Below, in pieces: positions 1,781 to 12,152 of a DNA stretch of 13,549 nucleotides (the first letter of the stretch is position 1; every line of letters starts with the position of its first letter). The notes beneath the pieces are model-generated. The model was not told the DNA's origin, made no database searches, and worked only from the letters and a program-made list of their open reading frames with translations. The stretch comes from Escherichia phage 500465-3. The DNA lies in sequence record CP025902.1. One strand, 5' to 3'. A program made the position numbers and the translations under genes.

Positions 1781-1793
1781 ATTCCCCCCCCAC

Positions 1794-8349: not shown

Positions 8350-11300
8350 CGTCCACCTCCGGAGAACAGACCACATCACGGGACTGCTGTTGCATAAAGT
8401 CCGCTGCTGCTTTTTTCCCGAGGTCATAAACCACCTTCAGGGCAGCCGGACCTATCTGCCCGTTCGTGCCATCGTTATTGATCTCGATGTTGTACTGCGG
8501 GGCAAACATCGCCATACCTGAACCACCAATATCCGCCACAACCCCCAGCTTACCGTCAGCACCACGACGCAGAGGCAGAATGGCTTCAGGCCCAGCTTCC
8601 CCCATCACACCTGCACCTTTTGCAAAAGCAAAAAACGTCGGACGGTTAACCACCGTGCCACTGTAGCGACTCAAATCAGCAGACTGATAAACACCACCAT
8701 CAGCATTGGGCGTCACACTGGCAGTTGCTGCACTCCCCAGCCAAACGCCGAACCAATCCCCTTAACTGCCTGCATCATGGACATCTGGGCCATGATTTTT
8801 GCCAGATCAGAAAGGAGCGAGGCGGTAAAAGATTTGAAGTTCAGTTTTCCGGTAGTACAGAACGTTGCCAGTGCATTACCTGCACTGTTAAATGCCGCTG
8901 TAAGCATCTGCTCAGCAGTGCCTGCCGCATTATCCGCATCTGCCGTGAAATTCTGAAACGCCCGCATAGCACCGTTTTTCCAGTTACCCTGAGCAATTTC
9001 AAGCTGTTGCCAGTAACGGCGATTCTCATTCAGTTGTCGGTTCAGGCTCTCCGTCAGCGCCTGCTCGGCCTTTCTGTAGTCATCCGTGTTATATGTCCCT
9101 TTCTGCTCACTATCCCGCCTCAACTGCTCCAGCTGTTGCTGGTATTTCTGGCGAAGACTCAGTTGTACCTGATATCGCTGCCGCTGCTGATCACCCATAC
9201 CCACCGTGGCGATATCCAGGTCATGTTGCTGACGCTGAGCGCGCTCTTCTTCAGCCAGTTGACTGGTCAGCTGAATTGTTTTTTTCTTCAGCTCGTTGAG
9301 TGCCGTCTGTTTCTGAAGCTCCTGCTGTTTTACATCCAGCAGCGTCAGTGCCTGAATCAGTTCATCTTTACGGGCCAGCACACTCTTTTCATCTGCCGTC
9401 AGTTTTTTCCCGTCCAGGTCGCTGATGCGCTGCTGCAGAGCCAGAAGCTGTTTATGCGCTTCTGTCATCTTTTCAGTGGCAATGCCTGCTGACTGTCTTG
9501 CAGCAGCAATCTGCCCTTCCACCTGTGCCTGTTGCTGACTGTACTGCAGCAATAACCGGGTGGCCTCATCATTACGGGTTTCGCGTGTTTTTTTTCTTAC
9601 CGGATGCCAGGGCTTTCTCGTAACGTTCATTTTCACGTTGTATCGCCGCATCCCTGACAGCCTGGTCGCGTACTGCATGGCATTAATACGCGCAATTTCA
9701 CGCTGATGTCGTGCTGCTTCCGTTTCATTCATCCGGTTCAGTGCAGCATTTTCAGCATTACGTCGTTTCTGTTGCTCCTGATAATTCCGCTCTGCCTGCT
9801 CTTTTGCATCCTGCAAATCCTTCTGGCGTTTTTTCTCCTGAAGATCGTTAAGACGCTGCTGATCGTATTCAACCTGAGAAGATGATGCCGTCCAGGGGAG
9901 TCTTTTCGCCCGCGACACTTTCTCCTGTAAAGCGGCAATCTGTTCATCCAGCGAGTCTTCACGACCAATATTCATGGCCGCATCCCAGAAACGACTCCAC
10001 AAATCAGACAGATACTTCAGCGTACTGCCAAGCGCATTGAGGTTATTATCAATATCCGCAGTACGCCGACTGGTTTTCCTCTGCCAGTGCAGACATGGCT
10101 ATCCGTGCAGCATCACTGGACCGCCCTGATCTCCAAGGACACGTATCTGCTCAAGCTGAGTGGCAGTAAGAAAATGCAGCTCATTGTCCAGAGCCTTCGC
10201 GGCATTTACAGGATCATCCTTCAGCCGCTTAAACTGATTTATGGTATCGCTGACCGACTGGCCAACCGATCGCTCCATCTGTGCGGCAGCTCTCGCCACC
10301 ATACCGATATCGTTTCCACGAAATGCACCACTCCCACCACCTGAGCCAGCGCACCGGCTGCAGCATGTTGCGTGATACCATTCCCGGAAATAGCACGACT
10401 GAGCGTCCACAGCTGCCCGGCAGTGACTCCGGCATAATGCCCCGTCAACGACAGCTGGCGGTTAAATTCTTCCCCCTCCTTCTGACCGTCATACCAGGCT
10501 TTACCCAGACCATAGACGGCCGCGGTAATACCGCCAATAACCCCGCCCAGCATCATGCCTTTCGGTGACATCAGTGTGTCTATCCATCCGGCACGGTTAG
10601 CCAGCGTTATCCCGGATCCCCTCAGCGCCCCTAAATTGCCGCGGGCCAGTTCACCTATCAGAACGCCTATCTCCTGGCGGGCCGCTGCACTTTTCAGACC
10701 CAGCGAATGCGTGGCTTTTCCTGCCCGCTCCATTTTGCGGATATACACTTCTGCAGCACTGCTTACCCCCAGCTGGGCTGCCTTGGCACGAAGCAACTCA
10801 GAAGATGAAAGATTCTGGCGGGTTGCCTGCTCTTTAAGCTGACGGATAAACGCCACTTTCTGTCGGGTAGCCTCTTCCTCAGCCTGTGTAAGAACACGGG
10901 TTTTCGCCGTAACCTCAGAAATCAGCGCCAGATAATCCTGCTGACCAATCCCGCCACTGTTTCTGGCCTGTCGGATCTGCTGCTGAATACGCTGTAATTC
11001 CTGCAGCCCCGCACTGGCCTGTTTCACACTGTCAATCTGACGATAAAACGCAGCAGCCGCTTTATCCTGAGCCTCCGCCAGAGCCATGGTCTGCGCCTGT
11101 TCCTCGCGCATTTTCTGGCTCAGTGCCTCCATGCGCTGGCGGGTTTTCTCCACCTCGCGGGCCATGCGTTCATGAGCCTGTGCGTTCTTCTCCACCGTCT
11201 GCGCATGGACGGATGCGGCTGTTGCAGCCGAAGAAGCCGCCTGCGTTGTCTGCCGGGCGGCCTGAGTCTGACGCTCCATAAAACGCTGCATACGGGCAGA

Positions 11301-11416
11301 AGACCGTTCTGCATCGCTGGCTGCACCATTCAGAAGGTTTTTGATACGGGGAATTTCATTTTTAAACTCTGCCGCATCAATCCCAAATCAATGACCAGGT
11401 TGGCTATCTGGTCCAT
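8346..11416 (-). CDS. H: Tail tape measure protein H (about 1020 codons); frame interrupted about 6 times as assembled
   Basis: The ATG at 11414-11416 opens MDQIANLVIDLG, then one missing base, then IDAAEFKNEIPRIKNLLNGAASDAERSSARMQRF... (ORF 10239..11291). This is followed by a long Q/E/K/R-rich coiled-coil stretch, then ...WIDTLMSPKGMMLGGVIGGITAAVYGLGKAWYDGQ... (ORFs 10099..10410 and 8713..10002), and the C-terminus GGVYQSADLSRYSGTVVNRPTFFAFAKGAGVMGEAGPEAILPLRRGADGKLGVVADIGG...NNDGTNGQIGPAALK (ORF 8270..8716). The final ...GLFSGGGR and its TGA (8346-8348, overlapping the M ATG as ATGA) appear after restoring one base at gatgtggtc. Confidence 0.85.
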
Positions 11417-12115
11417 AACGCACACCTCCGGAAATACCTTCCCCAAGATGCATCAGTTCTTCGTCCGTTCGCTCCGGTATCCCGTTCTCTTCCGGTAAAA
11501 GGCTGAAATCAGCCACCGCAGCATCACTGCTGCCGGACACCATTCTCACGATCAATGCCTTCAGCGAGGCAAACTGCGCATCCATCCACACATCACTGAA
11601 GCTCTGCATCCGGAAATAATCGCCCCACTCACCAAGCTCAGTGGCCGACATTTCCGACAGCATCCGCCGCCAGTCTGCCCGCCGGAACTCCCGGGCAAGC
11701 CGCATGACAAACTGCATTTCCCGCGTCAGGACTTTTCCGGCGTCAGCACCTCATGCTCCAAATCCCCGGTATTCTCAATGGCCCCCATACCGCTCAGCGA
11801 CAGAACCATCTCCGCCCCCGCACCCAGGGCATCATACGACCATGTTGTAATAACGGATGCGTAAAGCGTCTCAACATCCTGAGACTGTTCCGCATTCCAC
11901 AGTGAGCGGGAAACCAGCCAGGCATTGATATCCATCCCCATCCGCAGAAAAGCAATCTGTCGTTCAGCCTCCGGCAGTTCTCCCTCCCCGGCATCAAACT
12001 TTGCCGTTCGCTGCTGAACAAACGTCAGATATTCAATTCTCTGCAGCCCGGACAGCTCACTGAGCACCACGGACTGTTTTTCATAATTAAACGTGTCCTG
12101 TTTCAGAAACATCAT
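11388..12115 (-). CDS. Tail assembly chaperone G-T fusion, produced by programmed -1 ribosomal frameshift near the end of G; the T-frame segment spans about 11388-11750
   Basis: The T frame is open from about 11750 to the TGA at 11388-11390 and is in the -1 frame relative to G. Read through the slip site it gives G-K-VLTREMQFVMRLAREFRRADWRRMLSEMSATE...GEGISGGVRYGPDSQPGH, which parallels the lambda T region (GKVFDGELSFALKLAREMGRPDWRAMLAG...GGVRYG) as I recall it. The T stop overlaps the H start by 29 nt. Confidence 0.7.
11726..12115 (-). CDS. G: Tail assembly chaperone G (0-frame product); appears intact
   Basis: A GGTGGAG Shine-Dalgarno precedes a tandem ATGATG (12110-12115). The product is MMFLKQDTFNYEKQSVVLSELSGLQRIEYLTFVQQRTAKFDAGEGELPEAERQIAFLRMGMDINAWLVSRSLWNAEQSQDVETLYASVITTWSYDALGAGAEMVLSLSGMGAIENTGDLEHEVLTPEKS, with stop at 11726-11728. 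Its position between V and T and the overlap with T match lambda G. The start could equally be the second ATG (12112). Confidence 0.8.
   Translation of the reverse strand: MMFLKQDTFNYEKQSVVLSELSGLQRIEYLTFVQQRTAKFDAGEGELPEAERQIAFLRMGMDINAWLVSRSLWNAEQSQDVETLYASVITTWSYDALGAGAEMVLSLSGMGAIENTGDLEHEVLTPEKS
11732..11738 (-). other. Candidate -1 programmed frameshift slippery heptamer, 5'-GGAAAAG-3' on the minus strand, at the position of lambda's GGGAAAG
   Basis: Minus-strand sequence is ...acg ccg GAA AAG tcc tga in the G frame, two codons before the G stop. The T frame reads gcc GGA AAA gtc ctg... The alignment to the lambda G/T junction is by protein and from memory. Confidence 0.5.
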
Positions 12116-12128
12116 GTTCTCCACCTGC

Positions 12129-12152
12129 AAAAAAGCCCCGGATAACCGGGGC
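12129..12152 (-). terminator. Intrinsic terminator-like hairpin plus T6 run between V and G (minus-strand transcript)
   Basis: On the minus strand: GCCCCGG-ttat-CCGGGGC (plus 12135-12141 / 12146-12152) followed by TTTTTT (complement of 12129-12134), then the G Shine-Dalgarno GGTGGAG. It lies 21 nt after the V stop codon (12173-12175). Confidence 0.55.

What the first reader, a model, noticed from the sequence alone, without database searches (positions are those of the whole stretch)
11726..11750. The G-T frameshift site reads GGAAAAG, not the canonical lambda GGGAAAG
The T frame overlaps the end of G in the -1 frame, as required for the conserved G/G-T tail-chaperone recoding. At the aligned position the heptamer is G-GAA-AAG. 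A-site Lys AAG to AAA re-pairing is preserved, but P-site GAA to GGA re-pairing has a middle-position mismatch, where lambda has GGA to GGG. Either frameshift efficiency, and so the G to G-T ratio, is altered in this phage, or the base is miscalled. The site is only two codons before the G stop.
Basis: partly seen in the sequence, partly recalled or inferred. Interest (0 to 1): 0.45.

Follow-up and report, generated by a model that had tools for sequence, protein, structure and literature searches.

The report
Normal N15-type G-T frameshift site
The heptamer GGAAAAG at the end of the tail-chaperone gene G is real, not a sequencing error, and it is the usual, long-annotated frameshift site of this branch of lambda-like phages, so the finding is ordinary.

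Summary
On the minus strand, gene G ends ...CCG GAA AAG TCC TGA. The heptamer G GAA AAG lies at 11738-11732, and T is open in the -1 frame. The "miscalled base" reading is refuted. The G-T region is 100% identical to five finished E. coli chromosomes. The same heptamer is present in cultured phage mEp460, in 122/122 copies recovered from IMG/VR with fixed flanks, and in at least 1266 complete E. coli genome records. The GGGAAAG version in these flanks has 0 hits in IMG/VR. The site is not a peculiarity of this prophage. GGAAAAG occurs in 41 of 45 species-level loci from more than 20 Enterobacterales genera, with T proteins down to 40% identity, and in N15, HK225, mEp213, Eeyore, Fels-1 and a Providencia phage. 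The N15 GenBank record already marks GGAAAAG as the "slippery sequence for -1 translational frameshift". The first G is invariant at a synonymous third-codon position across six different preceding codons, which suggests selection for P-site re-pairing of GAA to GGA through a central G.U pair. Lambda's GGGAAAG is a minority state nested inside this family. Frameshift efficiency was not measured. In vitro work treats G GAA AAG as weakly slippery, and I found no conserved stimulator. Verdict: already known, low interest.

The parts
11726..12115 (-). gpG tail assembly chaperone ORF, 128-129 aa. PGAP starts it at the second ATG (12112) and the mEp460 record at the first (12115). The stop is TGA at 11728-11726.
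   Evidence: ORF list and sequence. Pfam PF06894 Phage_TAC_2, E=1.5e-40. Annotated as gpG in NZ_CP025892.1.
11732..11738 (-). Frameshift heptamer G GAA AAG. In the 0 frame it reads GAA (Glu, P site) and AAG (Lys, A site). In the -1 frame it reads GGA AAA.
   Evidence: Sequence. Identical in 122/122 close copies and in 41/45 species-level loci. It equals the annotated N15 slippery sequence.
11729..11750 (-). The only stretch in which a -1 shift can join G to T. It is bounded upstream by the -1-frame stop TGA (11753-11751) and downstream by the G stop (11728-11726).
   Evidence: Frame analysis: 25-nt overlap in L001/L002, which are identical to the window here, and sequence.
11388..11732 (-). 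T-frame part of the G-T fusion: 114 codons starting at GTC (11732-11730, re-reading G 11732) and ending at the stop at 11390-11388. Predicted fusion is about 241 aa, with junction ...LTPEK|VLTREMQFVMRLAREF...
   Evidence: Pfam PF06223 Phage_tail_T, E=4.4e-15. The T-frame peptide is conserved from the slip site onward, and 29/54 relatives have no start codon before LAREF.
11747..11752 (-). SD-like GAGGTG 8 nt upstream of the heptamer (the GAGG core is 10 nt upstream). It is a candidate stimulator specific to this sub-clade and is not conserved in the family.
   Evidence: Anti-SD duplex energy is -6.9 kcal/mol here. It is near 0 (+0.4 to -0.1 kcal/mol) in N15, HK225 and the Enterobacter-type loci (-1.0 in mEp213).
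12129..12152 (-). Intrinsic-terminator-like hairpin GCCCCGGTTATCCGGGGC followed by TTTTTT, between the major tail gene V and G.
   Evidence: Terminator scan. The same position is annotated as a rho-independent terminator in mEp460 and as a putative one in N15.
11414..11416 (-). ATG of the tape measure gene H, overlapping the end of T. In the window H is broken 11 codons later by a 1-nt homopolymer deletion at about 11384.
   Evidence: Sequence, L001 annotation, indel list.

Best explanation
GGAAAAG at 11738-11732 (minus strand) is the genuine, conserved -1 programmed ribosomal frameshift site of a lambda-like gpG/gpG-T tail-assembly-chaperone pair. It is of the type already annotated in phage N15. 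Most ribosomes read GAA AAG TCC and stop at TGA, giving gpG of about 128 aa. A small fraction slip back one base while tRNA-Glu sits on GAA (P site) and tRNA-Lys on AAG (A site). In the inferred mechanism, tRNA-Lys (anticodon mnm5s2UUU) re-pairs perfectly with AAA. tRNA-Glu (mnm5s2UUC) re-pairs with GGA through Watson-Crick pairs at positions 1 and 3 and a G.U pair in the middle. Translation then continues with GTC CTG ACG... to give a G-T fusion of about 241 aa that links the tape measure protein to the major tail protein, as established for lambda gpGT. What is shown: the sequence is real, homologous to lambda's site, conserved as an island in a variable region, and constrained at its first G. 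What is inferred: the tRNA re-pairing geometry, and that a low efficiency suffices because lambda needs only about 1 G-T per 30 G.
For: Genomic context is V-G-T-H, with Pfam PF06894 and PF06223 matches. The permissible shift window is only about 8 codons and this is its only A_AAG. The heptamer is invariant in 122/122 close copies despite at least 11 upstream sequence variants, and in at least 1266 complete E. coli records. Four divergent copies that I checked also carry it. The GGGAAAG variant in the same flanks has 0 hits in IMG/VR. It is conserved in 41/45 loci from more than 20 genera, with T identity of 40-99%, and in viable cultured phages (mEp460, N15, HK225, mEp213, Eeyore, Fels-1, PSTCR8lys). 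The N15 record annotates GGAAAAG as the slippery sequence. The codon before GAA is GCG, CCG, CTG, TTG, ACG or GTG, always NNG, against 30% G at the third position of four-fold codons nearby. That G has no coding role in either frame, which points to selection for P-site re-pairing. The T frame has no ATG/GTG/TTG before the conserved LAREF motif in 29/54 relatives, and its peptide is conserved from the heptamer onward. The roles of gpG/gpGT and the 30:1 ratio come from PMC5009743.
Against: There is no direct measurement for this heptamer in vivo. In a reconstituted E. coli system, AUG GAA AAG was chosen as the 'unfavorable/less slippery' control and gave mainly 0-frame product (PMC6924986). A_AAG alone is near background without a stimulator and reaches 5.6% with the IS3 pseudoknot (PMC4066793). 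I found no conserved stimulator. SD-like elements are not conserved, and the fold of the 60 nt downstream has z=+0.1 in this clade. In this sub-clade T has its own ATG (11717) and is annotated as a separate CDS, so some independent initiation cannot be excluded. The third-position-G statistic is not corrected for phylogeny.
Confidence: 0.85

Rival explanations
1. The third base of the heptamer is a sequencing error, and the true sequence is lambda-like GGGAAAG. For example, a G-run contraction plus an A-run expansion could produce it, which are the error types seen elsewhere in this window.
For: The window does carry 34 homopolymer indels relative to a finished genome. They are mostly 1-nt deletions in G runs plus three A insertions in A runs.
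Against: The 779-nt G-T region is 100% identical to five finished chromosomes and has no indel. GGAAAAG is present in mEp460, cdtI-type phages and N15, in 122/122 IMG/VR copies and in at least 1266 E. coli records. GGGAAAG in these flanks has 0 hits.
Confidence: 0.01
2. The site works as a bare A_AAG tetramer. Only tRNA-Lys slips, in the A site or later in the P site, and the upstream G GA plays no part.
For: A_AAG is the most shift-prone tetramer in E. coli (PMC4066793). [quoted passage not shown] A few relatives use G GCA AAA TAG, where P-site re-pairing is impossible.
Against: The first G is invariant at a synonymous position across six preceding codons. The P-site codon is almost always GAA or GGA, not any NNA. 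Neither constraint is expected if the P-site tRNA were irrelevant.
Confidence: 0.2
3. T is made mainly by independent initiation at ATG 11717, as PGAP annotates it, and frameshifting is incidental.
For: An ATG exists in this sub-clade, and T is annotated as a stand-alone CDS in about 1800 E. coli genomes.
Against: The only SD-like sequence is GGGAA, and it directly abuts the ATG. 29/54 relatives have no start codon at all before LAREF, and the T-frame peptide upstream of that Met is conserved. The -1 overlap and the heptamer are conserved throughout. From memory of Levin et al. 1993, as cited in PMC5009743, lambda T is made only as G-T.
Confidence: 0.05
4. The heptamer is intrinsically weak and depends on a lineage-specific stimulator to reach the needed G-T level. 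Here that would be the SD-like GAGGTG with its GAGG core 10 nt upstream, acting as in dnaX.
For: GAGGTG or GAGGCG is present in the whole window sub-clade at dnaX-like spacing, with -5.6 to -6.9 kcal/mol. The heptamer alone is weak in vitro.
Against: N15, HK225, mEp213 and the Enterobacter-type loci have no SD-like element (0 to -1 kcal/mol) yet keep the same heptamer. The motif also encodes conserved Glu codons and supplies the -1-frame TGA. There is no downstream structure signal.
Confidence: 0.25

Closest known systems
Phage N15 gene 14 / gene 15 (gpG / G-T homologues), GenBank AF064539.1
   Same: Same heptamer, GGAAAAG, explicitly annotated as 'slippery sequence for -1 translational frameshift' (10027..10033). 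Same gene order (major tail, terminator hairpin, G, T, tape measure). The T frame after the site has the same length with no indel.
   Different: The T domain is only about 43% identical. N15 G continues 5 codons past AAG before its stop, against 1 codon here. N15 has no SD-like element upstream, but it has a possible CGCCAG/CTGGCG hairpin 4 nt downstream that this window lacks.
Phage lambda G / G-T (G GGA AAG), Levin, Hendrix and Casjens 1993; Xu, Hendrix and Duda 2004, 2013, 2014
   Same: Homologous proteins (PF06894, PF06223). Same -1 overlap at the homologous position. Same A-site codon, AAG to AAA. Same role, a low-level fusion chaperone for tail assembly.
   Different: The P-site codon is GGA in lambda and re-pairs cognately to GGG. 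Here it is GAA, re-pairing to GGA with a central G.U. The T domain is 38% identical. In the T-protein tree, lambda and the Stx phages form a small clade nested among GGAAAAG users.
Phages mEp460, cdtI, Ayreon, Tritos, phi458 (E. coli lambdoid siphophages)
   Same: 97.8-98.6% nucleotide identity over G-T, with an identical heptamer and flanks. The window is a prophage of this type.
   Different: A few substitutions upstream, such as GAGGCG for GAGGTG. Their records annotate G and T as separate genes with no frameshift feature.
E. coli dnaX (A AAA AAG with an upstream SD and a downstream hairpin)
   Same: A -1 shift driven by tRNA-Lys on AAG. In this sub-clade there is an SD-like GAGG 10 nt upstream.
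   Different: There is no downstream hairpin (z=+0.1). The SD-like element is not conserved in the family. The P-site re-pairing is near-cognate rather than cognate.

Membership tests
Lambda-type G/G-T tail assembly chaperone with conserved -1 frameshift | Two ORFs located between the major tail protein gene and the tape measure gene. | tested here: met
   NZ_CP025892.1, which is identical to the window apart from indels, is annotated in the order tail protein (V), gpG, T, tape measure.
Lambda-type G/G-T tail assembly chaperone with conserved -1 frameshift | The second ORF is in the -1 frame and overlaps the 3' end of the first. | tested here: met
   The overlap window is 25 nt, bounded by the -1-frame TGA at 11753-11751 and the G stop at 11728-11726.
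Lambda-type G/G-T tail assembly chaperone with conserved -1 frameshift | Sequence homology to gpG and to the T domain. | tested here: met
   PF06894, E=1.5e-40, and PF06223, E=4.4e-15. tblastn hit to lambda T at 38% identity, E=9e-19.
Lambda-type G/G-T tail assembly chaperone with conserved -1 frameshift | A conserved shift-prone sequence inside the overlap. | tested here: met
   G GAA AAG is present in 45/54 non-redundant relatives, and heptamer positions are 87-100% conserved.
Lambda-type G/G-T tail assembly chaperone with conserved -1 frameshift | The downstream ORF lacks its own translation start. | tested here: inconclusive
   This sub-clade has ATGs at 11717 and 11705 without a well-spaced SD. 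29/54 relatives have no ATG/GTG/TTG before LAREF.
Lambda-type G/G-T tail assembly chaperone with conserved -1 frameshift | A G-T fusion protein is actually produced at a few per cent of G and is required for tail assembly. | not testable with these tools
   This needs a reporter assay, a western blot or mass spectrometry. Indirect support: cultured phages carrying this exact site are viable.
Canonical tandem-slippage heptamer X_XXY_YYZ | The first three bases are identical, so that the P-site tRNA re-pairs cognately. | tested here: not met
   The heptamer is G_GAA_AAG. The P-site shift GAA to GGA has a second-position G opposite U35 (described the same way in PMC6924986).
Canonical tandem-slippage heptamer X_XXY_YYZ | The A-site codon YYZ re-pairs to YYY. 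| tested here: met
   AAG shifts to AAA, both read by the single E. coli tRNA-Lys (PMC6924986).
N15-type GGAAAAG G-T slip site | The same heptamer at the homologous position of homologous genes. | tested here: met
   The N15 misc_feature at 10027..10033 reads GGAAAAG, and the T frame aligns without gaps from the site to LAREF.
dnaX/IS911-type stimulated -1 frameshift | An upstream SD-like element 10-14 nt from the site. | tested here: inconclusive
   GAGGTG is present here at -6.9 kcal/mol but absent in many relatives with the same heptamer.
dnaX/IS911-type stimulated -1 frameshift | A stable downstream hairpin or pseudoknot 5-9 nt from the site. | tested here: not met
   The 60-nt downstream fold is -20.0 kcal/mol with z=+0.1 against dinucleotide shuffles. 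The family mean z is -0.27. There are no Rfam hits.

The most novel reading that the evidence does not exclude
G GAA AAG is used in biochemical work as the 'unfavourable' control. Here it appears to be the majority, and perhaps the ancestral, G-T slip site of Enterobacterales lambdoid phages, with purifying selection on its first G. That would mean the bacterial P site accepts a central G.U re-pairing in vivo well enough to set a tuned G:G-T ratio. It would also mean both slipping tRNAs (Glu and Lys) carry mnm5s2U34, so host tRNA thiolation would control this class of phages even more tightly than it controls lambda. Alternatively, an unrecognised stimulator exists, such as the conserved Glu five codons upstream or another nascent-peptide effect.
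Probability: 0.3. Interest if true: 0.4.

Novelty: already known. Interest (0 to 1): 0.15.

Why it matters
It matters little for discovery. The site is the standard one for this phage lineage and was annotated in N15 more than two decades ago. Three practical points follow. First, automatic annotation (PGAP) lists G and T as separate genes in about 1800 complete E. coli genomes and misses the G-T fusion. Second, frameshift-site finders restricted to X_XXY_YYZ will miss this whole clade. Third, a heptamer treated as 'non-slippery' in mechanistic studies is in fact a widely conserved natural recoding site, so it would make a cheap and informative reporter experiment on P-site mismatch tolerance.

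Tried and rejected
1. Sequencing error. I rejected this after comparison with finished genomes, cultured phages and IMG/VR, even though the window is full of homopolymer indels elsewhere.

2. Conserved upstream SD-like stimulator. I computed anti-SD duplex energies for 54 contexts. The element is present in the window's sub-clade but not across the family.

3. Conserved downstream structure. MFE z-scores for the 60 nt after the site show no signal in this clade. Only an N15/Atlantibacter/Kluyvera subgroup shows a possible CGCCAG/CTGGCG hairpin, with z of -1.5 to -2.7. Both arms encode conserved residues, so I did not pursue it as covariation.

4. Rfam scan of the whole window: no hits.

5. Literature. 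I searched the open-access library for GGAAAAG or 'GAA AAG' together with frameshift, phage or tail. No paper discusses this heptamer in phage tails. Only Peng et al. 2019 uses it, as a control. Xu et al. 2004 is not held, so I could not check whether it tabulates or tests the N15-type site.

6. Transcriptional slippage. I did not consider it further because a run of four A is far too short (established knowledge).

Full report
**Observation.** The genes of this window lie on the minus strand. Read that way, the end of the gpG homologue is ...GAG CAT GAG GTG CTG ACG CCG GAA AAG TCC TGA. The heptamer GGAAAAG occupies 11738-11732, the G stop is 11728-11726, and the next ORF (ATG 11717, stop 11390-11388) is in the -1 frame. 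The two products match Pfam PF06894 (lambda tail assembly chaperone G, E=1.5e-40) and PF06223 (minor tail protein T, E=4.4e-15). The -1 frame is closed by a TGA at 11753-11751. A shift joining G to T must therefore occur within about eight codons, and GGAAAAG is the only A_AAG-containing sequence there.

**Is it a miscall?** No.
- The reverse complement of the window aligns end to end with a prophage of E. coli 503025 (NZ_CP025892.1). There are 0 substitutions but 34 gap openings.
- These indels are almost all single-base deletions in G runs, plus three A insertions in A runs. That is a homopolymer-error signature, and it breaks V, H, J and other genes.
- However, no indel lies in G-T, and the 779-nt G-T segment is 100% identical to five finished chromosomes.
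- The finished genome and the independently sequenced phage mEp460 both read GGAAAAG.
- A scan of IMG/VR with the heptamer left as N7 between fixed flanks returned 120 contigs. With L001 and L002 that makes 122 copies, all with GGAAAAG, although the upstream 30 nt occur in at least 11 variants.
- A scan for GGGAAAG in the same flanks found nothing.
- In complete E. coli genomes, 1832 of 5426 carry this 71-nt segment, and 1266 records match it at 99% or more, that is, exactly. Four divergent copies that I inspected also read GGAAAAG.

**How widespread is it?**
- I aligned 17 T homologues and used the alignment to fetch 45 loci from species-representative genomes. T identity to the window ranged from 40% to 99%, covering more than 20 genera of Enterobacterales.
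- In 41 of the 45 loci, the G/T overlap contains NNG GAA AAG. The exceptions are Edwardsiella (G GGA AAG), one Providencia locus (G GGA AAA TAG), and Kluyvera and Ewingella (G GCA AAA TAG).
- Among named phages, N15, HK225, mEp213, Eeyore, Fels-1 and Providencia phage PSTCR8lys have G GAA AAG. Lambda, PhiR12_2 and one Stx2a phage have G GGA AAG. Other Stx phages have A AAA AAG.
- The N15 GenBank record (AF064539.1) carries a misc_feature, 'slippery sequence for -1 translational frameshift', at 10027..10033. That sequence is GGAAAAG. The variant was therefore recognised by the annotators of N15.
- The N15-type and lambda sites align base for base: GCG GAA AAG CCC TCG CCA GTG AGC TGA against GCG GGA AAG TGT TCG ACG GTG AGC TGA.
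- In a neighbour-joining tree of the T domains, the lambda/Stx group, which uses the canonical heptamers, is a small clade nested among GGAAAAG users.
- Caveat: the genome scan used peptide patterns (AREF..., MLSEMSA...) that do not match lambda-like LAREM proteins. The proportions therefore describe the LAREF branch, not the whole superfamily.

**Evidence that the site is functional and how it works.**
- Anchoring 54 non-redundant contexts on the site, heptamer positions are 87-100% conserved, while most of the 18 preceding positions are 33-72% conserved.
- In the 45 GGAAAAG contexts, the codon before GAA is GCG (18), CCG (17), CTG (7), TTG, ACG or GTG. The amino acid changes, but the third base is always G. 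Among nearby four-fold codons only 30% end in G.
- That G is not decoded as part of a new codon in either product. The simplest reason for its conservation is pairing with C36 of the P-site tRNA after the shift.
- With the single E. coli tRNA-Glu (anticodon mnm5s2UUC; established knowledge), GAA to GGA keeps Watson-Crick pairs at positions 1 and 3 and puts a G.U pair in the middle. tRNA-Lys moves from AAG to AAA.
- The T frame has no ATG, GTG or TTG between the heptamer and the invariant LAREF motif in 29 of 54 relatives. Its peptide (GK-[VA]-L-x-x-E-[LR]-x-F-...) is conserved from the heptamer onward. T is therefore translated as a continuation of G.
- Phages with exactly this site are viable. 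In lambda, G-T is required at roughly 1 per 30 G (PMC5009743). A weak site is therefore sufficient.

**What argues for caution.**
- In a reconstituted E. coli system, Peng et al. chose AUG GAA AAG as the sequence 'unfavorable for slippage' because of the second-position mismatch. They saw mainly 0-frame product at all EF-G concentrations, although slippage rose with EF-G domain-4 mutants (PMC6924986).
- Sharma et al. found that A_AAG alone is near background without a stimulator and reaches 5.6% with the IS3 pseudoknot. They tested only X_XXZ_ZZN heptamers (PMC4066793).
- I looked for stimulators. An SD-like GAGGTG lies 8 nt upstream (GAGG core 10 nt, the dnaX spacing) in the window's sub-clade, with -6.9 kcal/mol against the anti-SD. 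N15, HK225, mEp213 and the Enterobacter-type loci have nothing comparable.
- The 60 nt downstream fold no better than shuffled sequence (z=+0.1; family mean -0.27). Only an N15/Atlantibacter/Kluyvera subgroup has a possible hairpin. Rfam finds nothing.
- The in vivo efficiency, and so the G:G-T ratio relative to lambda, remains unmeasured.
- Both slipping tRNAs carry mnm5s2U34, the modification shown to tune lambda G:G-T (PMC3296357). A stronger dependence on host thiolation is plausible but is only an inference.

**Comparison with known systems and verdict.**
- The locus meets the tested defining features of the lambda-type G/G-T recoding family: position, -1 overlap, homology and a conserved shift site.
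- It does not meet the strict X_XXY_YYZ rule of canonical tandem-slippage heptamers.
- It is identical in type to the annotated N15 site.
- It is not a dnaX-type stimulated signal.
- The window is an indel-noisy copy of a very common mEp460/cdtI-like E. coli prophage.
- The finding is real, but it is ordinary and already known at the level of database annotation.
- The only mildly new point from this work concerns the LAREF branch. There GGAAAAG, not lambda's GGGAAAG, is the rule, and its first G is under selection.
- I searched the open-access library and found no paper discussing this. Xu et al. 2004 could not be read.

Noticed in passing
whole window; e.g. 13151, 12391, 11384, 10335, 10126, 8738, 6322, 4663, 1791: Against NZ_CP025892.1 the window has 0 substitutions but 34 indels. 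Thirty-one are deletions (28 of a single base), mostly in G runs on the minus strand, and three are A insertions in A runs. They fragment V, H (tape measure), J and other tail genes. This looks like homopolymer sequencing or assembly error rather than pseudogenisation.
   Followed up: yes
window 12129-12152 (minus strand): A strong terminator-like hairpin, GCCCCGGTTATCCGGGGC followed by T6, lies between the major tail gene V and G. The same position is annotated as a rho-independent terminator in mEp460 and as a putative one in N15. It may lower G/T/H expression relative to V.
   Followed up: partly
window 11750-11752 (minus strand GAG); positions -14/-13 relative to the heptamer in 54 relatives: A Glu/Asp codon (GA-) five codons upstream of the P-site codon is 96-98% conserved across the family (motif E-P-V-T-A-E-K) in an otherwise variable G tail. 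When preceded by T it also forms the -1-frame TGA. It could be a protein motif or a nascent-peptide or nucleotide element of the shift signal.
   Followed up: no
L131 (Kluyvera), L133 (Ewingella), L158 (Providencia rustigianii), around position 1475-1486 of each locus: A few relatives replace the heptamer with G GCA AAA TAG or G GGA AAA TAG, so that A AAA directly abuts the G stop codon. This suggests a 'shifty stop' P-site slippage variant of the G-T signal.
   Followed up: no
L137, L138, L145, L153, L248 (N15), L249 (HK225): +1 to +45 after the heptamer: A possible hairpin, (TCCT)CGCCAG...CTGGCG(AGGGA), starts 0-4 nt after the heptamer, with z of -1.5 to -2.7. It is extended in Atlantibacter and Leclercia, where the Arg codon is AGG. 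It is absent from the window's clade. Both arms encode conserved residues, so its significance is unclear.
   Followed up: partly
window 1783-1792 (minus strand); L001 22893-22902: A poly-G tract sits between a terminator hairpin and the ATG of the tail-fibre gene, in the RBS position. It is G8 in the window and G10 in the finished genome. The difference may be a sequencing error, but such a tract could also be phase-variable.
   Followed up: no
NZ_CP025892.1 (L001 12549-13273) and about 1800 other complete E. coli genomes: PGAP annotates gpG and T as two independent CDSs, with T starting at an internal ATG, and annotates no ribosomal-slippage G-T product. The mEp460 and Fels-1 records do likewise. 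Only N15 and HK225 mention the frameshift.
   Followed up: partly
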